DNA of 64,000 nt from Candidatus Alectryobacillus sp. (GTDB lineage Bacteria > Bacillota_I > Bacilli_A > RFN20 > CAG-826), in NCBI GenBank assembly GCA_036735985.1, contig DAINNH010000001.1:103735-167734 (forward strand), written 5' to 3'. Positions 33,634 through 47,392 of this stretch are shown in pieces; position 1 is the stretch's first letter; every line of letters begins with the position of its first letter. The translations under genes and the position numbers were made by a program. A model generated the notes under the pieces. It worked only from the letters and a program-made list of their open reading frames with translations. It searched no databases and was not told where the DNA came from.

Positions 33634-34767
33634 ATGGAAGAAAATATTATTAAAGAAGAAAACAATGAGAACAAAGAGTTCTTAATATATCCTTCAAAAC
33701 TATCACGCCGTTTGTTAACTTTTTTAGCTGATGGTTTTTTAGCTTTTATTTTGTGTATTTTTTTATTTGAAATTGTCGTATTGCCATTAGGCAAATTGAG
33801 TGTGAATTATGGCACAAAATATAGCGATTATGTTAACGTAATCAATGAACGATATGATTTTTTGTACTCGAATAATTATTTATTTTATGAAAACGAAAAC
33901 ACAAAATATTCATATAATAGTAATGTTGAATATACTGCTAATGAGTTTATTCATTATTATGCTTTTGATAAAGACGTTTCACTTAAAAAATATGAAATTT
34001 TTGAAAACTATTATGTAAATAAAAAAGGCCTCGATGAAAATACATTTTTACAAAATAAATATAAATACGAAAGTAGTGATTCATTTAAAAAATATTTTGA
34101 AATTGATTTAAAAACTTCACCTTATACAATTCAAATGCGTGAAACTTATCGCAATTTATTTAAACCTTATTTCGAAACCGAAAATGCTATTTCTGATGCT
34201 GGAAAAAAAGAAATGACAACATTTAAATCACAATTTTTCCAAGGAACTTTCTTAGGAATGACAAATGATCTTTATTCGAGCGATAATTACATCATTGGTT
34301 TAAATAATGATATAAATACATTTAAAGATTACCAGAATAATTTGTATATTTATTGTTCATATATTTCTTTTGTATTAGTGGTCATTATTTTGTACTTAAT
34401 TATCCCATTAATTGATAAAAAGGGGCGAACGGTTGGGAAAATAATAATGAAACAAGAGGTTATAAATACAAATACTTTGCAGAACCCTCATATTAATTTA
34501 AAAATATCTCTATTTTTCTTAAATACTTTAGAATCGTTGAGTTTTTTAATGTTTGTTCCTTGGATTAGTGCAGGTTTTTCAACACTATTTTCATTAGTTC
34601 CGCTTTTTTATCCATCCGCTATTGCTCTTCTTTATTGTCTAATTTCCTTTGTAATTGCATGTGCGAATACTTTAAATAAATCTATAAAAGAATTAGTCAC
34701 TTTTACAATGGTAGTAGATTCTTCTTTAATGGACCAGTATTATATCGAAAGAGGTTATAGTGCATAA
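33634..34767 (+). CDS. RDD-family membrane protein with large inserted ectodomain (paralog 1)
   Basis: RDD-like elements are SRRLLTFLADGFL (TM1), then KKGRTVGKIIMKQEV after TM2, with further TMs. About 185 aa of Tyr/Asn-rich sequence sits between TM1 and TM2. Confidence 0.6.
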   Translation: MEENIIKEENNENKEFLIYPSKLSRRLLTFLADGFLAFILCIFLFEIVVLPLGKLSVNYGTKYSDYVNVINERYDFLYSNNYLFYENENTKYSYNSNVEYTANEFIHYYAFDKDVSLKKYEIFENYYVNKKGLDENTFLQNKYKYESSDSFKKYFEIDLKTSPYTIQMRETYRNLFKPYFETENAISDAGKKEMTTFKSQFFQGTFLGMTNDLYSSDNYIIGLNNDINTFKDYQNNLYIYCSYISFVLVVIILYLIIPLIDKKGRTVGKIIMKQEVINTNTLQNPHINLKISLFFLNTLESLSFLMFVPWISAGFSTLFSLVPLFYPSAIALLYCLISFVIACANTLNKSIKELVTFTMVVDSSLMDQYYIERGYSA

Positions 34768-35801
34768 TGATTAAAAGACAAACTGTACCTGTTGAAACAG
34801 TAGCGAATGATGAGATTACGCTAAACAGTGAAACACCTAAAAAAATTCATATTCAATATGAAAGACCCGTTCCTTCAAAAAGGTTGTTTTCTTCGATTTT
34901 AGATTTTTTAGTTTTTGCGTTAATTGCTTCGCTTATTTTTCTTGGAACCCGTGCAATCATGGAAGTTACGCCTAGCTATAAAGCCAACGAGGAAACTTAT
35001 CAAAGCATTCAAGTGAATTCTGGTTTATATCAAAAAAGCACAAACGGGTATTATTATAATATTTTTCACTACTATGAACTCCAAGACAACGATTCTACAT
35101 TTGAAAAGATAAAATTGAGAAATGCAATCGATGCTTTTATTAAATATAGCAATGAACAATCAGACACTCATAAGGTCGATGTTCAAAAAGAATATGATAA
35201 TTATCGAGTTAATCTAAAAGTTGATGGCGTAAATTATTTTATGGTTGAAAACAGTGAAATTAAAGAAGTTAGTGGCATACCATCTTCCAGTTTTAATAAA
35301 AATGCTTATGGGCCATTTATTGAAGAAAAATGCTGTGCAATTTATCTTGTTGAAAATTTTACTCAATTTGTTAATTCCCAAAAAGCCATAACTTACGGAC
35401 TTATTTTTATTGATCTTCCAATTAGTGTCATATTGGCAGCGATTTTATCTTTTTATGTTCCTGGATTGATTTTTAAAAGAGGACGTAAAAGTTTAGGAAA
35501 ATTGTTATTTCACATCTCGCTTGTTGATAAAAACTATTTAAGCTTGCCATTAAAAACTTATACCTATAGATTCTTAATCATTCTTTTTGGAGAAATTATT
35601 TTATCGTTTGCTACATTTGGAGTGCCATTACTTATATCAGCCAGTTTTGAGGCTTTTAGCAAGAAAAAACAACCTATTCACGATTATTTATTAAAAATTG
35701 ATTCGTTAGATACATCAACTGATAAGGTCTATTTTTCGAAACAAGAAATAGCTCACGAACAAGAAAATACTAATAAAACTGTTGATTTTAAACTTCGTTA
35801 A
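34767..35801 (+). CDS. RDD-family membrane protein with inserted ectodomain (paralog 2)
   Basis: KRLFSSILDFLVF (TM1), KRGRKSLGKLLFHISLVD and QPIHDYLL near the C-terminus. The start overlaps the stop of the upstream paralog (ATAATG). Confidence 0.6.
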   Translation: MIKRQTVPVETVANDEITLNSETPKKIHIQYERPVPSKRLFSSILDFLVFALIASLIFLGTRAIMEVTPSYKANEETYQSIQVNSGLYQKSTNGYYYNIFHYYELQDNDSTFEKIKLRNAIDAFIKYSNEQSDTHKVDVQKEYDNYRVNLKVDGVNYFMVENSEIKEVSGIPSSSFNKNAYGPFIEEKCCAIYLVENFTQFVNSQKAITYGLIFIDLPISVILAAILSFYVPGLIFKRGRKSLGKLLFHISLVDKNYLSLPLKTYTYRFLIILFGEIILSFATFGVPLLISASFEAFSKKKQPIHDYLLKIDSLDTSTDKVYFSKQEIAHEQENTNKTVDFKLR

Positions 35802-35873: not shown

Positions 35874-37439
35874 ATGAAAAAACAAATATTAATTATGCTC
35901 TCAGTTTTGCTTTGCGGAGTGTCTTATTTGTCCACCTCATATTCTGAAACTGCAAAATTTGATAATCGTTCGAACAGCTCAAAGGAGAGTGCAGTTTTAA
36001 AGTATGCAGCGGAAGGTGAAACTGTAAGTCTAGGAACTGAACTTGGTGATGGTGTTCTTTCGATTGCCCTCCGAGCTTCATCCAAAAGTCCGACTTCTCG
36101 TTCTATTCGTTTTCAAGTTACATCAGGAGATAATTTTAATGCGAATGACAACTACACATTAGGTTGTTATGATCCAAAAAATTATTATCCACTAACTGTT
36201 GTTTATAATTTGCTTGATGAAGATGGTAATGTTTATAAAACAAACGCTTCAACAGTTGTCGATCGTGGTGCTACTAGTGGTAATTATGATCCACTTGGCA
36301 ATTATTATGGCGCCGAATACATTGTTTTGTATTTAACTGCTTTTTGTGATTATGGTCTTTCTATTGATACAGAATCAATCAAATTCATCAATATTTTTAA
36401 AGCAAATATTGTGACTGGAGCAGATCAAGTCAAATCGTTTACTCCTGATTTTGAAACTAACTATTATTGTTCTTTTTCAAAAAATAAATCAACGGTTACA
36501 ACGGTCGTTCGTGATCTTGAAAATCTTATTGATTTCAAACAAACACACTTCGTTGAAAGCTCACTCTATTCTGACACATATGCATTAAAATCTACAATTT
36601 TTGCGCATAGTGAAGAAGTTTATGCTGCACGTAAAGCTAGTATTTATAAACAATATAAAGATGGAATTGCTGCAGGGACACATTTAATTCGTGTTCGTTT
36701 TACATGGAATGGCAATTCTCGTTATTTAATTTCTACTGAAAAAGATGGTGTAATAACGAAGCAAACATTAGTTCCGGATGGCAGTTATTTAATCATTAAC
36801 TCTGAGGGGAAAACTGATTTAACAATCTTTGCTAAAAATATTGAAGGCAAAATTGTTGATTTCCAATTAATGAACTTCACAGTTAAATTATCCTTACTTG
36901 TTACTAAGACGTTAAAAGAGGTTTCGACTCTTAGTTCATTTGATGATTATTATGGATCATTAAGTTTCTTAACTAGCGATGTTAAAGATTATAAAGGCAA
37001 TATCGTTTATTCTAAAGTAAATGTTGATGCCTTTAATAACATTAACTTACAAGCTATTCTCGGCTTCACATTAACTACTCTTATTTATGTTGTTGCTGTT
37101 GTTAGTGCTTATTTCTTCCTAAAAAATAAATTTAAGAACGATGAATTCCGTAAGATGAATAAGAGCTCTTATATTAAAAACAGCATTCATGGATACATTT
37201 TTGTTATCGCGTTTGTAATGGACGTTCTTTACATTATGTGGCGTGCTACAACTTACAATAACTCAACAATTGTTGCTAATGCTCTAGATCCAATGATTGT
37301 AGTATTCAGTGTTATTTCAATTATCTGGTTTGGCTACTGGGTTAAATATGCCATGGTTCGAATCAAAGATTGGCGTGAAAAACAACAAGTTGAAAAACTC
37401 AATCTTAATAAAAAAGTCGTTGATGATGGTACTAAATAA
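35874..37439 (+). CDS. orphan surface protein: signal peptide, ~390-aa beta-rich ectodomain, 3 C-terminal TM helices
   Basis: N-terminal MKKQILIMLSVLLCGVSYL is a signal peptide or a relaxed lipobox. The C-terminal hydrophobic segments are ILGFTLTTLIYVVAVVSAYFF, IHGYIFVIAFVMDVLYIMW and MIVVFSVISIIWFGYWV. I recognise no family. Confidence 0.6.
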   Translation: MKKQILIMLSVLLCGVSYLSTSYSETAKFDNRSNSSKESAVLKYAAEGETVSLGTELGDGVLSIALRASSKSPTSRSIRFQVTSGDNFNANDNYTLGCYDPKNYYPLTVVYNLLDEDGNVYKTNASTVVDRGATSGNYDPLGNYYGAEYIVLYLTAFCDYGLSIDTESIKFINIFKANIVTGADQVKSFTPDFETNYYCSFSKNKSTVTTVVRDLENLIDFKQTHFVESSLYSDTYALKSTIFAHSEEVYAARKASIYKQYKDGIAAGTHLIRVRFTWNGNSRYLISTEKDGVITKQTLVPDGSYLIINSEGKTDLTIFAKNIEGKIVDFQLMNFTVKLSLLVTKTLKEVSTLSSFDDYYGSLSFLTSDVKDYKGNIVYSKVNVDAFNNINLQAILGFTLTTLIYVVAVVSAYFFLKNKFKNDEFRKMNKSSYIKNSIHGYIFVIAFVMDVLYIMWRATTYNNSTIVANALDPMIVVFSVISIIWFGYWVKYAMVRIKDWREKQQVEKLNLNKKVVDDGTK

Positions 37440-37459: not shown

Positions 37460-39133
37460 ATGGAAATAAGAATTAAAAATTTAACAAAAATTTTCCCAGG
37501 GAATGCAAAAAAGCATATCCGTGATACCGTGGCCGTTGATAACCTCGATATAACGATTCCTGATGGAAAACTCGTTGGTTTATTAGGACCATCGGGCTGT
37601 GGTAAATCGACAACTCTTTATATGATTGCTGGTTTACTTAATCCTACAAGCGGTGAAATTTGGTTTGGTGATGAAGAAGTTACTAATCTTTCCGCCGAAA
37701 AAAGAGGTATTGGTTTAGTTTTCCAAAACTATGCTCTTTACCCACACATGACTATTTATAAGAATGTTGAATTCCCTTTAACTAATCTTAAAGTCGAAGT
37801 CCCACTTGTTAATTTCTTCAATTATGCATTAACTTATACTTATGTTTTAAGTGAAAAAGATGTGGTCGATGGTATTGTTCGTTCCTTTAACTCCTTATGT
37901 TATAAATTAGGTTTTAAGAAATTTAAAGTTGTTCCAACTGTTGTTGGCCAAGATTTAACTCTTCTTATTACTTTATCTAATATTTCAAAAGATGATGAAG
38001 CCAAGCTTAAAACTAATGTTCCAGCTATCATTAAAGCCACATTAACTAACGAGGTAGAAGAACAAAGTAGCGAAGCTTTATTTGATGGTGTTGCTCGTTT
38101 CAAACTTAGCAATACTGATCCAATTAATGAAGATGTTAAAGTTAATGAAGTTGCTTGTAAGAAATATGCTCGTAATGTTAATAACCTTATTCATAGCTTT
38201 GATTTAAGAAGCGTTGAATTAAGTGTTTATGTTAATGAAGGAGCTTTCTATTGCTTCTTTAAAGTTAAAAAGGCTACTGAAGCCCACTTAAATTTACTTA
38301 AAGAAGGCTTAGTTGAAAAATTCGGTGCTCAAGAACTTGATTTCAAAGTCTCACAAGCCTTATCCTATCGTAGATTAAATTCTGTTGAAAGACATGAAAT
38401 CGTTTACGAAACAGCTAAACTTGTTCAAATCGAAGAATATTTACAACGTAAGCCATCACAATTATCTGGTGGTCAACAACAACGTGTCGCGATCGCTCGT
38501 GCTCTTGTTAAACGTCCAAAGGTTTTATTACTTGATGAACCATTAAGTAACCTTGATGCTCGTTTACGTTTACAAACTCGTGAAGAAATCCGTCGTATTC
38601 AAAAGAATACCGGTATTACTACTGTTTTCGTTACTCACGACCAAGAAGAAGCTATGTCAATTTCAGATGAAATTGTCGTCATTAAGCTTGGTGTTATGCA
38701 ACAAAAAGATAAGCCACAAGTCGTTTATAATGACCCAGCCAACTTATTTGTTGCTCAATTCTTAGGAACACCTCCAGTTAACGTGTTTAATGGATATTCT
38801 AAAGATAATAGTATTTATGTTGGCAATTCTAAAGTCTTTGAATGTAAGGAAACTAAACTGCCAGATCAAGATTTATTTGTAGCTATTCGTCCAGAAGGTT
38901 TTGAATTAACTCCAAAGGGTGATTGTGGGTTAGCTTGCAACGCTGAAATGATTCAAATTTTAGGGCGTGATCTTTCGATTATTGCCACAAATGAGAATTG
39001 TTTAAAACCAAACTTCAAAGTTATTATCGCAAATAACGATGATAACATTAAAGGCAAAATTAAATTAGGTGTTAAACCAAACAAATTATATATTTTCGAT
39101 AAGACAACCGAAAAACGTATTTACATTAAATAG
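37460..39133 (+). CDS. MalK/UgpC-type ABC transporter ATP-binding protein with ~200-aa internal insertion
   Basis: Walker A GPSGCGKST, Q-loop VFQNYALYPHMT, signature LSGGQQQRVAIARAL, Walker B LLLDEPLSNLD, H-loop VTHDQ, and a C-terminal TOBE-like domain. About 200 extra residues lie between the Q-loop region and the signature. Confidence 0.88.
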   Translation: MEIRIKNLTKIFPGNAKKHIRDTVAVDNLDITIPDGKLVGLLGPSGCGKSTTLYMIAGLLNPTSGEIWFGDEEVTNLSAEKRGIGLVFQNYALYPHMTIYKNVEFPLTNLKVEVPLVNFFNYALTYTYVLSEKDVVDGIVRSFNSLCYKLGFKKFKVVPTVVGQDLTLLITLSNISKDDEAKLKTNVPAIIKATLTNEVEEQSSEALFDGVARFKLSNTDPINEDVKVNEVACKKYARNVNNLIHSFDLRSVELSVYVNEGAFYCFFKVKKATEAHLNLLKEGLVEKFGAQELDFKVSQALSYRRLNSVERHEIVYETAKLVQIEEYLQRKPSQLSGGQQQRVAIARALVKRPKVLLLDEPLSNLDARLRLQTREEIRRIQKNTGITTVFVTHDQEEAMSISDEIVVIKLGVMQQKDKPQVVYNDPANLFVAQFLGTPPVNVFNGYSKDNSIYVGNSKVFECKETKLPDQDLFVAIRPEGFELTPKGDCGLACNAEMIQILGRDLSIIATNENCLKPNFKVIIANNDDNIKGKIKLGVKPNKLYIFDKTTEKRIYIK

Positions 39134-39145
39134 GGATAATCTTAT

Positions 39146-40240
39146 ATGGAAAATAATGAAAAAAAGGATGGCTTAATAAATAATAGCGGTGGAGTTAGCG
39201 CTACTATTGATAATCCATATGTCTATAACGATACTAAATATGGCGAAGTACAACTTGGCTATAATCCTCAAAAAAATTTAAATGTTCGCCTTGTTTCAAA
39301 TAAGGCTGCCGATCCTAATTTTAAGGTTACAGGCGTTAAAGATGCCGGACAAAGTAATAACTGGAAAGCCTGGTTATATTTAGCTCCAGTCCTCATCCTT
39401 ATGTCAGTTTTCTTAATTTATCCTTTAATTGATACTATCGCTATTTCCTTTATGGATAACTATAGTTATGTTAAGGGTACATTTGATGGCTGGTCTTTCG
39501 CTAACTATGGTAAAGTCTTAGGACTTCTTCCTGTTAATGGAGGCTATCAAAAGAATTTCGTCGACTATGCTATTGGTAACACTTTCTTCTTAGTGTTTGT
39601 TACTGTTCCAATCTCAATTTTTATTGCTATTCTCATCTCAGTCGGTCTAAATAATTTAAAATGGTTCCAAAAAGTATTACAAACCGTTTTCTTCCTTCCA
39701 TATGTTACTAACGCCATTGCTATCGGCATGGTCTTCAGTGTCATCTTCGATCAAAAAGGTTTAATAAACTTTATCTTCCAAACAGATAAACTTTGGATTT
39801 ATGGAGCCCAAAGATGGGATGCAATGCTTCCACTTTGTATTTACATTATTTGGAGTTCGCTCCCATTTAAGATTCTTGTCTTCCTTAGTGGCCTACAAGG
39901 TATTGATAAACAATATTATCAAGCGGCTAAAATTGATGCCACTCCACAATGGAAGGTGTTATTTAAAATTACAATTCCATTATTATCGCCGCAAATCCTT
40001 TATATTATGATTACTTCCTTTATCGGTTCGTTTAAGGAATATTCAAGTATTGTTGGCTTATTCAATGGTCCGGGTACTTCAAATGGTTCTTATGAAATGT
40101 ACACTGTTGTCTACTATGTTTACGATAACATTTCACTTCATACCGAATTAGCTGCGGCCGCTGCCACAATGCTCTTTGTTGTTATTTTACTCTTTACATG
40201 GCTCCAAAGTGTTGTTTCAAAACGCCGTGTTTACTATTAA
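39146..40240 (+). CDS. ABC transporter permease (MalF/UgpA-like) with ~75-aa N-terminal extension
   Basis: EAA loop GIDKQYYQAAKIDATPQWKVLFKITIPLLSP. 6 TMs. Confidence 0.88.
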   Translation: MENNEKKDGLINNSGGVSATIDNPYVYNDTKYGEVQLGYNPQKNLNVRLVSNKAADPNFKVTGVKDAGQSNNWKAWLYLAPVLILMSVFLIYPLIDTIAISFMDNYSYVKGTFDGWSFANYGKVLGLLPVNGGYQKNFVDYAIGNTFFLVFVTVPISIFIAILISVGLNNLKWFQKVLQTVFFLPYVTNAIAIGMVFSVIFDQKGLINFIFQTDKLWIYGAQRWDAMLPLCIYIIWSSLPFKILVFLSGLQGIDKQYYQAAKIDATPQWKVLFKITIPLLSPQILYIMITSFIGSFKEYSSIVGLFNGPGTSNGSYEMYTVVYYVYDNISLHTELAAAAATMLFVVILLFTWLQSVVSKRRVYY

Positions 40241-40255
40241 TAAGGAGGAATGGTT

Positions 40256-41260
40256 ATGTTTGAAAATTTATTTAAGAAAAAACAAGATCCAAATTTGGCC
40301 ACCTATCCTGATTTTACTAAACCAGGTGTCCTTCCTTGTGACGACATTGTAATTACGATTAAAGAAGGTCGAGCTTCTGTTAAGAAACTGCTTGTAAATC
40401 AAAAAATAATGCATGTTCTGTCGACTATTTTACTCTATGTAATTATTGTGGCCTTAGCTTTATTAGTCGTTTTCCCATTCTACTGGATGATTATTACTTC
40501 GTTAAAAACTAACGAAGAAATTATGGCGGGTGACCAAACGTTCTTCCCACGTATCGTTATGTGGACCAACTACGTTTATGTCTTCCAAGTCTTCGATTTT
40601 AAGACTTACATGTGGAATACTATTGTCGTTGCTATTTTCTCGACTTTAGGTACTCTTATCACAACTATCTTCTCCGCTTTTGCTTTCGCTCGTTTAAACT
40701 TTAAGGGCCGTGATCAATTATTTATGGTCTTCTTAATGACAATGATGATTCCAGGCGAAATGATGGTTATTTCTAACTATATTACTGTTGCAAGTTTTGG
40801 CTGGATTGGCAATGATCAAACCTTGATGGATGCTTATTTATCAATGATTGTTCCTTTCTGGGTTAGTGTTTTCTATATTTATTTACTCCGTCAAAACTTT
40901 AAACAAATTCCAAATGAATTATATTTAGCGAGTAAAGTTGATGGCAAATCCGATTGGAATTATCTCTGGAAAGTCATGGTTCCACTTGCTTCTCCAACTC
41001 TTATCTCAATTACTATTTTAAAGTTCATGGGTACTTGGAACTCCTATGTGTGGCCAAACCTTGTCACCCAATATCCGGAATATCGTCTTATTTCCAATGG
41101 TCTTCGTGGCAGTGCCTTCCAAGATCTTGAAGCCGGTGTCGTTTTCCAAGGTTATAAGATGGCGGCAACTGTTATTGTTACTGTTCCACTCTTCCTTCTC
41201 TTCGTTTTCTTTAGAAAATATATTATGAGAGGTGTTGGCAGAGCCGGAATAAAAGGTTAA
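40256..41260 (+). CDS. ABC transporter permease (MalG/UgpE-like)
   Basis: EAA loop IPNELYLASKVDGKSDWNYLWKVMVPLASP. GGAGG ends at 40248, so the ATG at 40256 is preferred over 40250. Confidence 0.88.
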   Translation: MFENLFKKKQDPNLATYPDFTKPGVLPCDDIVITIKEGRASVKKLLVNQKIMHVLSTILLYVIIVALALLVVFPFYWMIITSLKTNEEIMAGDQTFFPRIVMWTNYVYVFQVFDFKTYMWNTIVVAIFSTLGTLITTIFSAFAFARLNFKGRDQLFMVFLMTMMIPGEMMVISNYITVASFGWIGNDQTLMDAYLSMIVPFWVSVFYIYLLRQNFKQIPNELYLASKVDGKSDWNYLWKVMVPLASPTLISITILKFMGTWNSYVWPNLVTQYPEYRLISNGLRGSAFQDLEAGVVFQGYKMAATVIVTVPLFLLFVFFRKYIMRGVGRAGIKG

Positions 41261-41357: not shown

Positions 41358-42902
41358 ATGAAATCAAGAAAATATTTATCCCTTCTTGCAGTTCCAATGG
41401 TTTTGGGACTACTTACAGCATGTGGAGAGACAACATCAACTTCAAAAGAACAAACAACTACAAGTCAAACTCCTACAACAACTGAAACCTCTACCGAAGA
41501 GACCTATGTTCCAAAGGTAAAGACAGCTACTACTATTTATTTCTGGAATACTTTAGGTGAACAATTTACTTCAACCATCAATGGTTTTATTGAAGGTTTT
41601 AAGAAACTTGAAACAAATGTCACTGTTGAAGTCGTTAAACAAACTGGTTCTTATAATGATTTAAAAACCAAAGTCGTTAATGGTTTCTCTGTTGATAACT
41701 ATCCAGATTTAGTCCAATGTTATCCAGATCACGTTGCTGAATATATCGACTACGAAAAGGCTCTTAACTTACAACCTTTCATTGATAATGCTGATTATGG
41801 TTGGACAGCCGAAGATAAAGCAGACCTCATTCCTGCTTATTTAGCCGAAGGCCGTGGTTTTGCTAAAGAAGGTACATACGTTGTTCCTTTCCAAAAATCA
41901 ACTGAAGCTATGTTCTATAATGAAGACATTCTTCTTAATACAACTATTGCTCAAGGTATCGTTACCGCTTATGCTTCTTTAGGCAAGGGTGATACATTAA
42001 ATAATGGTAATCCAATTAGTGCTTCATACTTATCTAACCTTACTTGGGAAGAATTATTCAATAAACTTTGCCCAGCTATTGAAGCTTATAACGCCTCTTT
42101 ACCAGAAGCTGAAAAGATTTTAAAGACTGGTGAAGCTTACCATTCAATCTTCGCTTATGATAGTGATGATAACTTATTCATTACCTTAGCTCAACAATAT
42201 GGTTATGGCTATACTTCTGTTGATAAAGTTACTGGTAAAGGTAAAGCTGATTTCAATAATGCTGAAATGAAAGGTCTTGCTGCTACATTTAATGCTGCTG
42301 CTAAGAAAGGTTATATCATTTCGAAAGGTTCAGCTGGCAATAACTATACGAATACTTATTTCACAAAGCAAAATACTTTATTCTCTGTTGGTTCAACTGG
42401 TGGTGTCAGCTATCAATTTAGTAAAGATAACCCAATGAACGTTGGTGTTTCAATTATTCCACACGCTGAAGGCAAAGAAAAAGCTGTTATTTCACAAGGT
42501 CCTGGCTTAACAATGCTTGATCATAATGATGAAAACAGAGCTCTTGCTTCTTGGTTATTCTACAAATACATGGTTAATAAAGAAAATTCATTAACATGGA
42601 TGCTTAACTCTGGCTATCAAGGCATTCGTTTATCGAACTTCACTTCTGAAGAATATCTTGATAAGTGTGATATTTCTTCCAAAGATCCAAAGAGTGCTGA
42701 AAGATTATATGCGAAAGCCTCAACCTATGTTCCAACAACAAGTAATTATTTATTCACATCACCTGTTTTCGTTGGAAGTTCTACTTGCCGTACAGTCGTT
42801 GGCGGTCTTATGACAAAGATCTTAACTCCAACAAACGATATCAAAGATGTCGATACTTGGTTCCAAGATGCTTACGATACAGCCAATATTGCTATTAAGT
42901 AG
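41358..42902 (+). CDS. family-1 (CUT1-type) extracellular solute-binding lipoprotein, paralog 1
   Basis: Lipobox LLTAC followed by a Thr/Ser-rich linker. IYFWNTLGEQ...YPDLVQCYPDHVAEY...VVPFQKSTEAMFYN. Confidence 0.82.
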   Translation: MKSRKYLSLLAVPMVLGLLTACGETTSTSKEQTTTSQTPTTTETSTEETYVPKVKTATTIYFWNTLGEQFTSTINGFIEGFKKLETNVTVEVVKQTGSYNDLKTKVVNGFSVDNYPDLVQCYPDHVAEYIDYEKALNLQPFIDNADYGWTAEDKADLIPAYLAEGRGFAKEGTYVVPFQKSTEAMFYNEDILLNTTIAQGIVTAYASLGKGDTLNNGNPISASYLSNLTWEELFNKLCPAIEAYNASLPEAEKILKTGEAYHSIFAYDSDDNLFITLAQQYGYGYTSVDKVTGKGKADFNNAEMKGLAATFNAAAKKGYIISKGSAGNNYTNTYFTKQNTLFSVGSTGGVSYQFSKDNPMNVGVSIIPHAEGKEKAVISQGPGLTMLDHNDENRALASWLFYKYMVNKENSLTWMLNSGYQGIRLSNFTSEEYLDKCDISSKDPKSAERLYAKASTYVPTTSNYLFTSPVFVGSSTCRTVVGGLMTKILTPTNDIKDVDTWFQDAYDTANIAIK

Positions 42903-44591: not shown

Positions 44592-46148
44592 ATGAAATTA
44601 TCAAAATATTTATTTGTCGTTGTTGCTGCTTTAACTTTTGGAGTGTTAACTTCTTGTAGTAAAACCACTTCAAGTACTGAGACAACTACAACTACAACTA
44701 CATCGAACGATACTGTAGAAACATCTCTTCCAACATGGGTTGATTATGTAAATGACCCAAAAATTCGTTTAGGTGTTGATTATCATAAAGAGGGTTCAGC
44801 CACTGAATCTCGTGATTTTACAGTGGATGGTATCGCTCAAGTTGGTCTTCATATGTGTATTGATGGTGATACGGCGCATTTTACTAACCCATATAATACT
44901 GTTAATGTTAACGGCAATCTATCAAATATTGTTAAAATTCGTTTTTATGGTATTGATACTCCTGAATCAACCGGAAAAATTCAACCTTATGGTAAACAAG
45001 CCTCAGATTATACAAAATCAATCTTAAAAAATGCCGCTAATAACGGAACTATTGTTATTACTGGTACTAATTTTGCATCATATAAGGTTCCAACTTTTGA
45101 TTCGACTGGTACTCGTTATCTTGGTCTTGTTTGGGTTAATGAAACTGTTAAAAATGCGGCTTATAATGATTTAAAATTATTAAATTTACAAATTGTTGAA
45201 TATGGTTATTCCTGGGTTAAATCAACAAGTGATATTCCAGAATTAAGCAGTACTTTTGTTTTAGCTGAAACACAGGCTGAAACTTATAAATTAAAACTTC
45301 ATAGTGGTGAAAAAGATCCTTACTTCAATTATGAAGGTGCCCAAGAAGTTGAAATTTTAAAAATTAAAGAAGCGGTTGTGGATACAATGACTACCGGAGC
45401 AGAGAATGCTTTTAATGGGGCAAATATCAAAGTCTATGGTGTTATTGTTGGCTATGCTAATAATACGTTATATATTCAAAAATATTATTCAGAAGCTAAA
45501 GGCAGTTTAATTAGTGGTGGCGAATATGCTTCGCTTAATATCTTTACTGGTATGTCCACAATTCCTTCTAAATTTCAAAAAATAGGTAATTTACTTTGTC
45601 TTGTTGGCACATTTGAATATACCGAGAACTTTGGTATGCAAGTAAGTGGTGTTGCGATGCCTACTAAACCAGTGGGTGAATCTGATTCCTATATTGTAAC
45701 GGATCAGGCTGAAATTACGGCTCATTTTGAGAAAACGGAACCATACGTTTTTGAAGATACTATGGATAATTTCTCTTCAACAGTTCCATACAATGGAACT
45801 CCAGATTTAAAGTATCTTTATTCGCCTATTAAAGTAACTGATGAATTAGTTTGCACTAAAGTTTATAAATCAGCCTCAAGTGGTGATATTTCTTTAACTG
45901 TTTCGCCAGTTGGCACAACAACTAAAGAAAATCTTGAAATCTATATTTCTTATATTTTCTATCCTGATCAAGAAAATCATCCGGCCCTTCAATGGAAAGA
46001 TGAATCTAATTTCTTAAATCAAACATTTAGAGTTTCTGGTATTTTCAACTGTCGTTATGATTCCGGCACTTCAAAATATTACTACTCTATTACCTGTCGT
46101 CCAAGTCTCACTCCAGAAGATTTAATTTGTACAAGTTACGCTGGATAA
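44592..46148 (+). CDS. staphylococcal-nuclease (SNase/thermonuclease) family lipoprotein with C-terminal beta-rich (OB-like?) extension
   Basis: Lipobox LTSC plus a poly-Thr linker. SNase core CIDGDTAHF...IRFYGIDTPES...QPYGKQASDYTK...GTRYLGLVWV...LQIVEYGYSWV, with the Ca/catalytic positions conserved. Confidence 0.82.
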   Translation: MKLSKYLFVVVAALTFGVLTSCSKTTSSTETTTTTTTSNDTVETSLPTWVDYVNDPKIRLGVDYHKEGSATESRDFTVDGIAQVGLHMCIDGDTAHFTNPYNTVNVNGNLSNIVKIRFYGIDTPESTGKIQPYGKQASDYTKSILKNAANNGTIVITGTNFASYKVPTFDSTGTRYLGLVWVNETVKNAAYNDLKLLNLQIVEYGYSWVKSTSDIPELSSTFVLAETQAETYKLKLHSGEKDPYFNYEGAQEVEILKIKEAVVDTMTTGAENAFNGANIKVYGVIVGYANNTLYIQKYYSEAKGSLISGGEYASLNIFTGMSTIPSKFQKIGNLLCLVGTFEYTENFGMQVSGVAMPTKPVGESDSYIVTDQAEITAHFEKTEPYVFEDTMDNFSSTVPYNGTPDLKYLYSPIKVTDELVCTKVYKSASSGDISLTVSPVGTTTKENLEIYISYIFYPDQENHPALQWKDESNFLNQTFRVSGIFNCRYDSGTSKYYYSITCRPSLTPEDLICTSYAG

Positions 46149-46150
46149 TT

Positions 46151-47392
46151 ATGATGTTAAAAATTAAGAAGGTTTTGCCGTTATTTTTGCTAACAACATT
46201 GCTTTTTTCGTGTGATGTAAATAATAGCGGATCTTCCACCAATGAGACAAGTGATACAAATGCAACTAGCGAAACATCAACTAATGCGACAAGTAGTGCG
46301 AATAGTACTTTGGTCATAAGTGAGAACGAACCTTTTATTTCAGAATTGTTTATTGGCGAAAAATATACTTTATCTTGTATTGAAATAGGAAATTCGACAA
46401 ATGCGTCAATTAGTTTATCTAATTACTCTTTGGCTATCTTTAAATACAGTGATTTATCGATTGAATATAAATTTAGTGATTCTCTTAATGCCAACGGAAC
46501 AATTATTTTAGCAAATAATGCATTGGCGGCGAGTAATTCTAATTATATTGATTTAGGGGCGAATTATATTACTGGGAGCAACTATATTGAGCTTCGTAAA
46601 AATGGCGTTTGCATTGATGCTATTGGCAATAAGGGGTTAAATACCTTTTATCAAACTAATGGTTCAATGATTCGCTTTAAGGAGTATTTTAAATCTTATA
46701 ACAAATATGATCCATTACATTTCTTTCATGTTCGTGGTGGCGTAAGTAAATATTTGGGTAATCTTGATGTTTTAATGAGTGTTACTGAGTATGAAAAGGG
46801 ACCAACTTTATCCTCGTATTATTCGGATAAAGTCTATGGCAGTTCAAGTGTTGTTCCACAAGGTGGCTATCTTAAAGCAACAATTAAGTCACTTGGAGAT
46901 GGAGATACTACTCGTTTTTATTTCCCAGATGGTGATTCGAGTGTAAATAGTTTATCTGCCGTTCGATATTTGTTTATTAATTGTCCAGAAATTTTGCACC
47001 CGGGTGTTGAAGGCTCACGCGATCAGCCATGGGGACAACCTGCTAAAACTTTTAATAATAACAAGCTTAGTAATGCTACAAGCATTCTTGTTCAATCAAA
47101 TAGTGGTTATTCATTAACTGAAACTTATGATCGTATGTTGGGATATGTTTGGTATAGTGATGTTAGCAATCCTAGTTTAAGTGACTATCATTTATTGAAT
47201 TATGAAATGGTTTTAAATGGTTATGCTAACGTTTCGATTGATTCAAAATATGATACAATGTATGGAGTAGGCGACGTTTTATATTACGATTATGTTATGT
47301 ATGCTTACTACAAAGCATTTAATGCTCACATCGGTGTTTGGGGTGAAACAGATCCAACTTACGATTACAGTAATTCGATATATATTGGATAA
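46151..47392 (+). CDS. lipoprotein with LTD-like domain plus SNase-family nuclease domain
   Basis: Lipobox LFSC. The LTD-like segment is ISELFIGEKYTLSCIEIGNSTNASISLSNYSL...ANGTIILAN. The SNase core is GDGDTTRFYF...VRYLFINCPE...QPWGQPAKTF...YDRMLGYVWY...NYEMVLNGYANV. The ATG at 46151 is preferred over the TTG at 46127. Confidence 0.75.
   Translation: MMLKIKKVLPLFLLTTLLFSCDVNNSGSSTNETSDTNATSETSTNATSSANSTLVISENEPFISELFIGEKYTLSCIEIGNSTNASISLSNYSLAIFKYSDLSIEYKFSDSLNANGTIILANNALAASNSNYIDLGANYITGSNYIELRKNGVCIDAIGNKGLNTFYQTNGSMIRFKEYFKSYNKYDPLHFFHVRGGVSKYLGNLDVLMSVTEYEKGPTLSSYYSDKVYGSSSVVPQGGYLKATIKSLGDGDTTRFYFPDGDSSVNSLSAVRYLFINCPEILHPGVEGSRDQPWGQPAKTFNNNKLSNATSILVQSNSGYSLTETYDRMLGYVWYSDVSNPSLSDYHLLNYEMVLNGYANVSIDSKYDTMYGVGDVLYYDYVMYAYYKAFNAHIGVWGETDPTYDYSNSIYIG

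What the first reader, a model, noticed from the sequence alone, without database searches (positions are those of the whole stretch)
37775..38400. ~200-aa insertion splitting the nucleotide-binding domain of the ABC ATPase, possibly a tandem duplicated module
In MalK-type ATPases the Q-loop/helical region (here VFQNYALYPHMTIYKNVEFPLTNLKV) is followed within about 20-30 residues by the segment preceding LSGGQ. In this protein about 205 residues intervene before ...NSVERHEIVYETAKLVQIEEYLQRKPSQLSGGQQQR. By eye the insert has two ~85-aa halves with a similar pattern: R-x-(F/V)-N-x-L...(K/R)-x-(F/V)...hydrophobic strand...(D/T)EA-x-L. That looks like two alpha/beta modules. An insert in the helical subdomain would sit next to the permease coupling helices. 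It could serve as a regulatory or docking domain, for example for the orphan 35874 product or the extended permease N-terminus. I recall mycoplasma homologues (MG187/MPN134, about 585 aa) being similarly oversized. The insert has no assigned function.
Basis: partly seen in the sequence, partly recalled or inferred. Interest (0 to 1): 0.6.

Follow-up and report, generated by a model that had tools for sequence, protein, structure and literature searches.

The report
Folded two-domain insert in importer ATPase
The motor subunit of a nuclease-linked nutrient importer in an uncultured gut bacterium carries one well-folded, 195-residue, two-domain module spliced into the loop next to where the motor grips the membrane channel; the module is conserved in over a hundred related species, but what it does is still only inferred.

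Summary
ORF 37460-39133 (557 aa) is a MalK/UgpC/MsmX-type ABC ATPase with all catalytic motifs and a C-terminal regulatory domain. One block of about 195 residues (about 110-305) is inserted in the helical subdomain, between the equivalents of E. coli MalK residues about 104 and 106.

AlphaFold2 models the insert with high confidence (pLDDT 92). It forms a two-strand stalk carrying two beta-alpha-beta-beta-alpha-beta (ferredoxin/ACT-like) modules. Foldseek's best matches are designed tandem-ferredoxin proteins, followed by tandem ACT regulatory proteins. No sequence profile match to ACT or any other family was found. The two halves are not significantly similar in sequence.

The insert family occurs in at least 132 species of gut and rumen RF39-like Bacilli. 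Most carry a third module; the window holds the short form. The insert is under purifying selection (dN/dS 0.05-0.3).

Orthologous nuclease-linked operons carry 0, 17, 38, 125, 165 or 380-436 extra residues of unrelated structure at the same loop, so the site is an insertion hot spot.

The ferredoxin-type insert has one origin. It is always found with the neighbouring orphan membrane protein, and nearly always with an N-terminal extension of permease 1. A docking or assembly platform is my best guess (about 0.45); an allosteric sensor is the main rival.

The scan has already found the three-module form on other DNA (e1-3652167).

The parts
37460..39133 (+). ABC importer ATPase, 557 aa (P0001), MalK/UgpC/MsmX type. 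It has Walker A GPSGCGKS (43-50), Q-loop VFQNY (87-91), LSGGQ (335-339), Walker B LLLDE (356-360) and H-loop VTHDQ (391-395).
   Evidence: motifs read from the translation
37460..37780 (+). N-terminal part of the nucleotide-binding domain (residues 1-107): the RecA-like core up to the first helix of the helical subdomain, ending ...KNVEFPL.
   Evidence: Aligns to residues 10-102 of 2it1 and 7-104 of 2yyz; Pfam ABC_tran profile positions 2-80.
37781..38380 (+). The insert as modelled (residues 108-307, TNLKVEV...SYRRLN). About 195 of these residues have no counterpart in canonical MalK-type ATPases.
   Evidence: AF2 of the insert alone gives pLDDT 92.3 and pTM 0.74; no Pfam or PDB sequence hit
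37790..37804 (+). Stalk strand 1 (residues 111-115, KVEVP). The NLKVEVPL motif is almost invariant across the family.
   Evidence: DSSP strand in both models; invariant columns. Orthologues with only 17-38 extra residues keep just this hairpin. The pairing with stalk strand 2 is inferred.
37814..38071 (+). Module 1 (residues 119-204), beta-alpha-beta-beta-alpha-beta. It has a conserved D134-x3-G138-I139-x2-S142 at the beta1-alpha1 loop and helix start.
   Evidence: secondary structure; conserved columns; Foldseek
38063..38098 (+). Conserved junction motif Q-S-S-E-A-L-F-D-x3-R (residues 202-213) between the modules. It is the most conserved polar patch of the insert.
   Evidence: Invariant or near-invariant columns Q95, A99, L100, D102 and R106 of alignment A4.
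38081..38356 (+). Module 2 of this protein (residues 208-299), which corresponds to module 3 of the three-module relatives; beta-(loop)-alpha-beta-beta-alpha-beta. The low-confidence loop 216-225 is where relatives carry their extra middle module.
38360..38374 (+). Stalk strand 2 (residues 301-305, LSYRR), which returns the chain to the helical subdomain.
   Evidence: R304 and L306 are invariant
38381..38779 (+). The rest of the nucleotide-binding domain (residues 308-440): second helix of the helical subdomain, signature motif, Walker B, D-loop and H-loop.
   Evidence: Aligns to 2it1 residues 109 onward.
38780..39130 (+). C-terminal MalK-type (TOBE-like) regulatory domain (residues 441-557).
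   Evidence: Alignment with 2it1 runs to query residue 554; Foldseek of the full model hits MalK/MsmX/SugC.
35874..37439 (+). Orphan membrane protein (521 aa): signal peptide, ectodomain of about 370 aa and three C-terminal TM helices. Its best-conserved parts are the K/R-rich (so predicted cytoplasmic) loop NDEFxR (about 421-427) and the C-terminal tail ending DGT. It is a candidate partner of the insert.
   Evidence: No Pfam or NCBIfam hit. Lies immediately upstream of the ATPase in 77 of 80 related loci. Found in the same 12 of 41 relatives as the insert. Absent from 10 orthologous operons without this insert. Conservation profile.
39146..40240 (+). Permease 1 (364 aa). It has a cytoplasmic N-terminal extension of about 72 aa (window 39146-39361) that carries the clade-specific motif ...VRLVS...(F/Y)KVTGV.D...NNWKAW. 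It is a candidate partner of the insert.
   Evidence: Pfam BPD_transp_1. The extension is present in 71-72 of 74 loci of the insert clade and absent from all 10 non-insert orthologous operons.
40250..41260 (+). Permease 2 (336 aa), with an N-terminal strand-like motif (IVITIKEG.ASV).
   Evidence: Pfam BPD_transp_1. The motif is present in operons whose ATPase has at least the hairpin stalk and is weak or absent in insert-less ones.
44592..47392 (+). Two SNase-family genes that end the operon. They are context: this is a nuclease-linked importer.
   Evidence: Pfam SNase PF00565, E = 4e-9 for each.

Best explanation
SHOWN: The ATPase of a nuclease-linked, CUT1-like ABC importer carries one domain insertion in the variable loop of its helical subdomain. 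The site lies between the equivalents of MalK residues about 104 and 106.

The insert is a two-strand beta stalk bearing two ferredoxin-like (beta-alpha-beta-beta-alpha-beta) modules. It is a folded domain under purifying selection. It arose once, in a clade of RF39-like gut and rumen Bacilli. Most members of that clade have three modules.

The same loop is an insertion hot spot. Sister operons carry nothing, a bare hairpin, or unrelated helical inserts there.

INFERRED: The helical subdomain rotates with the ATP cycle, and the two helices that flank this loop line the groove for the permease coupling helix. From that position the module most likely acts as a cytoplasmic docking and assembly platform beside the interface between the transmembrane and nucleotide-binding domains. 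It would hold the elements found only in this clade: the N-terminal extension of permease 1 and/or the conserved cytoplasmic loop and tail of the orphan 35874 membrane protein. That would tie an accessory subunit to the transporter.
For: One block at one site. High-confidence fold and topology. Foldseek E = 7e-7 to 1e-4 over about 190-200 columns to tandem ferredoxin/ACT proteins. The family is present in at least 132 species genomes. dN/dS of the insert is 0.05-0.30, against 0.02-0.13 for the core. Orthologous operons have 0, 17, 38, 124-125 or 165 extra residues at the same loop. TGA-code Mollicutes genomes have 379-436 extra residues there. The clade with the ferredoxin-type insert is monophyletic, with SH-aLRT support of 100. 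The orphan gene is adjacent in 77 of 80 loci. It occurs in the same 12 of 41 genomes as the insert. It is absent from 10 orthologous operons that lack the insert. The orphan's best-conserved parts are its TM helices, the K/R-rich loops and the C-terminal tail. The permease-1 N-extension is present in 71-72 of 74 loci of the clade and in 0 of 10 outside it. In one insert-less operon (L104) a roughly 300-aa K/E-rich extension sits on the N-terminus of permease 1 instead, which suggests the two attachment points serve the same region. From my own knowledge: in other ABC ATPases, inserts in this subdomain are partner-binding arms (EttA arm, eEF3 chromodomain, UvrA UvrB-binding domain, Rad50/SMC coiled coil).
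Against: The co-occurrence reflects a single evolutionary origin, so it counts as one event and not as replicated evidence. Evolutionary rate covariation between the insert and the orphan is nil (r = -0.02 with the C-terminal part, 0.02 with the ectodomain). The L066/L069 lineage has the insert and the orphan but no permease-1 extension. The insert evolves about 8 times faster than the ATPase core. The position relative to the coupling groove rests on alignment plus my own recollection of MalFGK2 structures, not on coordinates examined here.
Confidence: 0.45

Rival explanations
1. Allosteric sensor. The tandem ACT-like modules bind a small cytoplasmic molecule, for example a nucleoside, a nucleotide or a nucleotide second messenger. 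Through the stalk they would restrain the rotation of the helical subdomain and so shut the importer when the product is plentiful. This is trans-inhibition, which MetN, ModC and MalK achieve with C-terminal domains.
For: After designed tandem-ferredoxin proteins, the best Foldseek matches are tandem ACT regulatory units: GcvR-like 1u8s, SerB2 ACT1-ACT2, the AHAS small subunit and aspartokinase. An almost invariant D-x3-G-I-x2-S sits at the beta1-alpha1 loop of module 1; from my own knowledge, that is where ACT domains bind ligand. Feedback control would make sense for a nucleic-acid-precursor importer.
Against: None of the 55 diverse inserts matches any ACT, NIL or other Pfam family, even at E <= 1, and there is no PDB profile hit. 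TM-scores are only about 0.3. The ferredoxin-like fold is very common and does not indicate function on its own. Few polar residues are conserved and the insert evolves fast. Sister lineages put helical, non-ACT inserts at the same site. The protein already has the MalK-type C-terminal regulatory domain.
Confidence: 0.25
2. Tolerated structural accretion. A permissive surface loop has repeatedly accepted extra sequence in genome-reduced, Mollicutes-like lineages. The ferredoxin-like modules are kept only because misfolding would harm the ATPase. They have no specific partner or ligand, or at most act as a steric spacer or solubility element.
For: The site holds inserts of 0 to 436 residues of unrelated structure in orthologous operons. 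The substitution rate is high, comparable to the surface proteins of the operon. No rate covariation with any operon partner was found.
Against: dN/dS is well below 1 in every pair. The fold is predicted with high confidence from only 55 sequences. The insert is retained in at least 132 species, with no intact gene lacking it inside the clade. The polar motifs QSSEALFD..R and D..GI..S are invariant. The insert is found together with two other clade-specific cytoplasmic features.
Confidence: 0.2

Closest known systems
MalK / MsmX / UgpC / SugC ATPases of CUT1-type ABC importers (PDB 2it1, 2yyz, 7cad, 6yir, 1q12)
   Same: All nucleotide-binding motifs are present, as is the C-terminal TOBE-like regulatory domain. 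Phmmer against PDB sequences gives E = 3e-78 to 4e-59. The gene sits in an operon with two BPD_transp_1 permeases and SBP_bac_8 binding proteins.
   Different: About 195 extra residues split the helical subdomain. The score falls below the NCBIfam UgpC cut-off (330 bits against 432). The same genome has a separate, uninterrupted UgpC-type ATPase at G000:C4:7360-8487.
Mycoplasma nuclease-linked 'nucleotide transporter' ABC operons (MAG_5030-5070, Mhp379, MPN133-136; PMC3585158, PMC9740415)
   Same: SNase lipoprotein genes share an operon with a sugar-type ABC importer. The ATPases of two TGA-code Mollicutes genomes are oversized, with an insertion at the same loop.
   Different: Those inserts (379-436 aa) are K/E/N-rich, apparently helical, and not homologous to this one. 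No orphan-like gene was detected beside the ATPase at those two loci (blastp). The two papers on these operons that I searched by keyword do not mention an insertion; one describes the ATPase as having 'two ATP-binding domains'.
Tandem ACT regulatory units (GcvR-like 1u8s, SerB2 ACT1-ACT2 5it4/5jlp, AHAS small subunit 2f1f/6u9d)
   Same: Two consecutive beta-alpha-beta-beta-alpha-beta modules; Foldseek E = 1e-6 to 1e-4 over about 190-200 columns.
   Different: No sequence-profile similarity. TM-score is about 0.3 because the orientation between domains differs. Here the unit is inserted inside another domain rather than standing free or at a terminus.
ABC ATPases with partner-binding inserts in the helical/signature lobe: EttA/ABCF 'arm', eEF3 chromodomain, UvrA UvrB-binding and insertion domains, Rad50/SMC coiled coil (my own knowledge)
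   Same: A domain is grafted between the Q-loop and the signature motif, so it moves with the ATP cycle and is used to engage a partner.
   Different: Those proteins are soluble, non-transporter ABC proteins, and their inserted folds are different. I know of no described case in a type I importer.
C-terminal trans-inhibition domains of importers (MetN C2/NIL, ModC, MalK regulatory domain; my own knowledge)
   Same: MetN C2 is also a ferredoxin-like module on an importer ATPase that controls activity.
   Different: Those domains are C-terminal and dimerise beneath the nucleotide-binding domains. This one is internal, sits at the membrane-proximal outer edge, and coexists with a MalK-type C-terminal domain.

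Membership tests
MalK/UgpC/MsmX-type ABC importer ATPase | Walker A, Q-loop, LSGGQ signature, Walker B with catalytic Glu, and H-loop are all present. | tested here: met
   GPSGCGKS, VFQNY, LSGGQ, LLLDE and VTHDQ were read in the translation. Pfam ABC_tran E = 5e-35.
MalK/UgpC/MsmX-type ABC importer ATPase | C-terminal TOBE-like regulatory domain. | tested here: met
   Query 310-554 aligns to residues 109-357 of 2it1. Foldseek of the full model hits MalK/MsmX.
MalK/UgpC/MsmX-type ABC importer ATPase | Score above the curated family cut-off (NCBIfam UgpC, MalK, PotA and others). | tested here: not met
   The best hit is UgpC NF008653 at 329.6 bits against a cut-off of 432. All models match in two stretches.
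MalK/UgpC/MsmX-type ABC importer ATPase | Contiguous helical subdomain, about 36 residues from FPL to LSGGQ. | tested here: not met
   The distance here is 230 residues. Insert-less orthologues have 36.
ACT domain (Pfam ACT clan) | beta-alpha-beta-beta-alpha-beta fold. | tested here: met
   AF2 topology. Foldseek hits to tandem ACT proteins.
ACT domain (Pfam ACT clan) | Sequence-profile match to an ACT-clan family. | tested here: not met
   None of the 55 inserts matches any ACT, ACT_4, ACT_6 or NIL model at E <= 1.
ACT domain (Pfam ACT clan) | Binds a small-molecule effector at the beta1-alpha1 loop or the domain interface. | not testable with these tools
   Only a conserved D-x3-G-I-x2-S at that loop is seen.
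Mycoplasma-type nuclease-linked ABC importer operon | SNase-family nuclease gene(s) in the same operon as the ABC genes. | tested here: met
   PF00565 in the products of 44592-46145 and 46151-47389. nuc1-like genes lie in the orthologous loci L099-L108.
Mycoplasma-type nuclease-linked ABC importer operon | Orthology of the transporter to the experimentally studied mycoplasma operons (MAG_5050-5070, MPN134-136). | not tested
   Those proteins could not be fetched. Only two unnamed TGA-code genomes were compared: ATPase 41-50% identical in the core, permeases 27-36% identical.
Ferredoxin-type insert family of RF39-like Bacilli (this report; also e1-3652167) | NLKVEVPL...QSSEALFD..R...(S/A)(Y/H)R(R/K)L frame at the FPL loop, homologous over the whole insert. 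| tested here: met
   68 protein clusters at E = 4e-24 to 4e-9 with the insert alone as query. 132 species loci. Alignments A1 and A4.

The most novel reading that the evidence does not exclude
The insert could be a mechanical coupler. Through the stalk it would pick up the ATP-driven rotation of the helical subdomain and pass it to the cytoplasmic loop and tail of the orphan 3-TM protein. The ATPase would then drive movements of a large extracellular domain as well as import, for example handing nuclease-generated fragments to the binding proteins. That would make a type I importer with a built-in MacB/FtsEX-like mechanotransmission arm. The variable inserts at the same loop in other lineages would be alternative couplers.
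Probability: 0.1. Interest if true: 0.8.

Novelty: new variant of a known kind. Interest (0 to 1): 0.55.

Why it matters
Regulatory or accessory domains of type I ABC importers are normally C-terminal. I know of no described case with a folded domain grafted into the helical subdomain, beside the coupling-helix groove.

This family also offers a natural series: no insert, a hairpin, two modules, three modules, or helical inserts. That series shows how a motor subunit acquires new parts, and it supplies ready-made minimal variants for experiments.

The transporter belongs to the nuclease-linked importers thought to supply nucleic-acid precursors to mycoplasmas and related genome-reduced gut bacteria. 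The substrate and subunit composition of those importers are still unknown. If the insert docks the orphan membrane protein, the importer would have a fifth subunit.

Tried and rejected
(1) Internal repeat by sequence. Smith-Waterman of the two halves against shuffles was not significant. hhalign of the module 1 and module 3 profiles found nothing. Only module 2 against module 3 (P = 7e-6) and, weakly, module 1 against module 2 (P = 0.011) scored, and the window lacks module 2.

(2) Sequence searches with the insert. PDB by phmmer, a PDB profile and Pfam on 55 members all gave nothing meaningful.

(3) Foldseek with the full-length model returned only MalK-type hits, so the insert had to be modelled alone.

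(4) The full-length AF2 model with 18 near-identical cores gave a poor core (pLDDT about 30), so it cannot be used to place the insert relative to the nucleotide-binding domain.

(5) Evolutionary rate covariation of the insert against the orphan, permeases and binding protein gave no signal for the insert.

(6) I first read the quick tree as showing that the two-module form is ancestral. I withdrew this. The tree that holds the two-module forms together has a higher likelihood (p-AU 0.63), and all two-module forms searched among the relatives belong to the window's genus. Gain or loss of the middle module therefore stays open.

(7) Literature searches for MG187, MPN134, and MalK with K106C found nothing usable. 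MG187/MPN134 themselves were not retrieved.

(8) A class-wide search with permease 2 at E <= 1e-45 returned no listed match with TGA stops, and three whole families gave no match at all. A direct search of five small genomes taken from those families then found TGA-code hits.

(9) The orphan HMM was searched against six-frame translations of 10 non-insert operons and found no remnant.
Full report
OBSERVATION.

ORF 37460-39133 (+) encodes a 557-aa protein (P0001) and is open under table 11. Pfam ABC_tran matches it in two stretches. Solved MalK-type ATPases align as query 17-111 to chain 10-104, then query 303/310-554 to chain 102/109-357 (2it1, 2yyz). Every NCBIfam importer-ATPase model resumes at query 297-306. 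The extra length is therefore one block of about 195 residues (about 110-305, window about 37787-38374) and is not spread over small indels. The distance from FPL to LSGGQ is 230 residues, against 36 in insert-less orthologues. All catalytic motifs and the C-terminal MalK-type regulatory domain are intact. The insert alone has no PDB or Pfam sequence match.

By the alignment to E. coli MalK (query 314 corresponds to MalK 112), the block lies between MalK residues about 104 and 106. From my own knowledge, that is the loop between the two helices of the helical subdomain that line the coupling-helix groove. I could not find an open paper for the cross-linking data I recall.

ANATOMY.

A full-length AF2 run on a shallow alignment gave a poor core but a confident insert. 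The insert alone, with 55 sequences all below 70% mutual identity (A4), gave pLDDT 92.3 and pTM 0.74. In protein numbering the elements are:
- strand 111-115;
- module 1: beta 119-129, alpha 136-149, beta 155-162, beta 165-175, alpha 177-189, beta 194-204;
- module 2: beta 208-215, a low-confidence loop 216-225, alpha 226-246, beta 255-259, beta 262-272, alpha 274-288, beta 291-299;
- strand 301-305.

The first and last strands are the only parts kept in orthologues with 17-38 extra residues. I therefore read them as a hairpin stalk; the pairing is inferred.

Foldseek against the PDB gave designed tandem-ferredoxin proteins, GcvR-like 1u8s, the SerB2 ACT pair, AHAS small subunits and aspartokinase at E = 7e-7 to 1e-4 over about 190-200 columns. 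TM-scores were only about 0.3, so the topology is shared but the arrangement between domains is not.

The two halves are not similar in sequence. At profile level, the extra middle module of the relatives resembles the last module (P = 7e-6) and weakly the first (P = 0.011). The first and last modules, which are the two present here, give no hit to each other.

DISTRIBUTION.

With the insert as query, 68 protein clusters match. In one genome per species, 132 loci encode a relative. Their record titles are uncultured gut and rumen Bacilli such as Ca. Scatoplasma, Onthovivens, Enterosoma and Enteromonas, or 'uncultured Mollicutes'; I recognise these as the RF39 group, but the tools gave no taxon name for the window's own genome. 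Only 8 clusters at 50% identity hold a match, so the family is narrow.

Most members are 631-645 aa with three modules. The window's own genome is a 0.6-Mb, 65%-complete bin. Its genus holds the short forms: 557 aa here, 548-553 aa, and a 606-aa form with a coiled-coil hairpin inside module 1.

The insert's dN/dS is 0.05-0.30, against 0.02-0.13 for the core. Its summed branch length is about 8 times that of the core. It is a fast-evolving but constrained domain.

CONTEXT AND NATURAL SERIES.

The gene order RDD - RDD - orphan (35874) - ATPase - permease 1 - permease 2 - two binding proteins is conserved. In the window it ends with two SNase genes. This matches the nuclease-linked ABC operons proposed to import nucleic-acid precursors in mycoplasmas (PMC3585158, PMC9740415).

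Permease-2 orthologues at 50-69% identity occur in many relatives that lack the insert. I fetched ten such operons. Their ATPases have the following numbers of extra residues at the same loop:
- 0 in five operons;
- 17 and 38 in two (beta hairpin);
- 124-125 in two, of different, non-ferredoxin sequence;
- 165 in one, K/E-rich.

Two TGA-code Mollicutes genomes have ATPases of 739 and 795 aa, with K/E/N-rich inserts of 379 and 436 residues at that loop. The profile of the ferredoxin-type insert hits none of these. The loop is therefore an insertion hot spot, and the ferredoxin-type insert is one clade's solution.

A tree built from the ATPase core plus both permeases, with insert columns removed, makes that clade monophyletic with support 100. 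Whether two or three modules came first is open.

CANDIDATE PARTNERS.

The orphan gene lies next to the ATPase in 77 of 80 loci; two of the other three loci lack the upstream DNA, and in the third (L066) the upstream ORF is shorter and gave no BLAST hit. It occurs in exactly the same 12 of 41 relatives as the insert. It is absent, even as a remnant, from the ten non-insert operons. Its ectodomain is poorly conserved. Its TM helices, the K/R-rich loop NDEFxR and the C-terminal tail are its best-conserved parts.

Permease 1 has an N-terminal extension of 40-80 aa with a conserved two-strand-like motif in 71-72 of 74 clade loci. None of the ten operons outside the clade has it, and the L066/L069 lineage also lacks it. 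A strand motif at the N-terminus of permease 2 tracks the presence of the stalk.

In L104, whose ATPase has no insert, a roughly 300-aa K/E-rich extension sits on permease 1 instead.

Against over-reading: these features share a single origin, so the co-occurrence is one event. Rate covariation between the insert and the orphan is nil.

MECHANISM.

My best reading (about 0.45) is a docking and assembly platform at the edge of the interface between the transmembrane and nucleotide-binding domains. It would hold the permease-1 extension and/or the orphan's cytoplasmic elements. The rivals are an ACT-like allosteric sensor (about 0.25) and a tolerated structural accretion (about 0.2). The anatomy, distribution and selection are shown. 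The contacts and any ligand are inferred.

COMPARISON AND NOVELTY.

The protein works as a MalK/UgpC-type ATPase but fails the curated cut-offs and the contiguity of the family. Its modules have the ACT fold but no ACT sequence signature.

My literature searches found no description of the insert. One paper describes the M. agalactiae homologue as having 'two ATP-binding domains'; this may reflect a split domain hit, but I did not verify that.

The scan has already reported the three-module form on other DNA (e1-3652167) and the operon (e1-3652166). This window adds three things: the two-module form, the insertion-hot-spot series, and the single-origin and rate-covariation caveats. I class it as a new variant of a known kind, with interest 0.55.

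Noticed in passing
L099-L108 (relatives G015-G040) and L115/L116 (G066, G051): In orthologous nuclease-linked operons the same ATPase loop carries 0, 17, 38, 124-125, 165, 379 or 436 extra residues of unrelated structure. The site is a general insertion hot spot, not a single event.
   Followed up: yes
window 39146-39361 (permease 1, residues 1-72): This cytoplasmic N-terminal extension has a conserved motif (..GY..(T)V(V/I)RLVS..K..Y.VTGI.D..NNWKAW). It is restricted to the clade with the ferredoxin-type insert: 71-72 of 74 loci have it, and 0 of 10 outside the clade.
   Followed up: partly
window 37134-37436 (35874 product, residues about 421-521): The orphan protein's ectodomain is poorly conserved. 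The predicted cytoplasmic loop NDEFxR, the TM helices and the C-terminal ...DGT tail are its most conserved parts.
   Followed up: partly
L104:8164-10062: In an operon whose ATPase has no insert, permease 1 is 632 aa and has a K/E/N-rich, coiled-coil-like N-terminal extension of about 300 aa. The accessory module appears to have moved from the ATPase loop to the N-terminus of permease 1.
   Followed up: no
window 35874-37439 versus 41358-42902: In the rate-covariation test, the only clearly positive pair was the orphan ectodomain and the first binding protein (r = 0.31). Both are extracellular.
   Followed up: no
G000:C4:7360-8487 (own genome, outside the window): This is a second, uninterrupted UgpC/MsmX-type ATPase (452.6 bits, above the NCBIfam cut-off), with a permease paralogue nearby. 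The insert-bearing ATPase is therefore probably dedicated to this operon.
   Followed up: no
window 33634-35801: The two upstream genes encode RDD-family membrane proteins (PF06271). RDD2-like genes also sit upstream of ATPases with no insert, a hairpin or a 125-aa insert (L099, L100, L104, L105), so they are not specific to the ferredoxin-type insert.
   Followed up: partly
PMC3585158, In silico Analysis section: The M. agalactiae ATPase MAG_5050 is described as containing 'the two ATP-binding domains'. This may be a misreading of a nucleotide-binding domain split by an insertion like the one seen here. I did not verify it.
   Followed up: no
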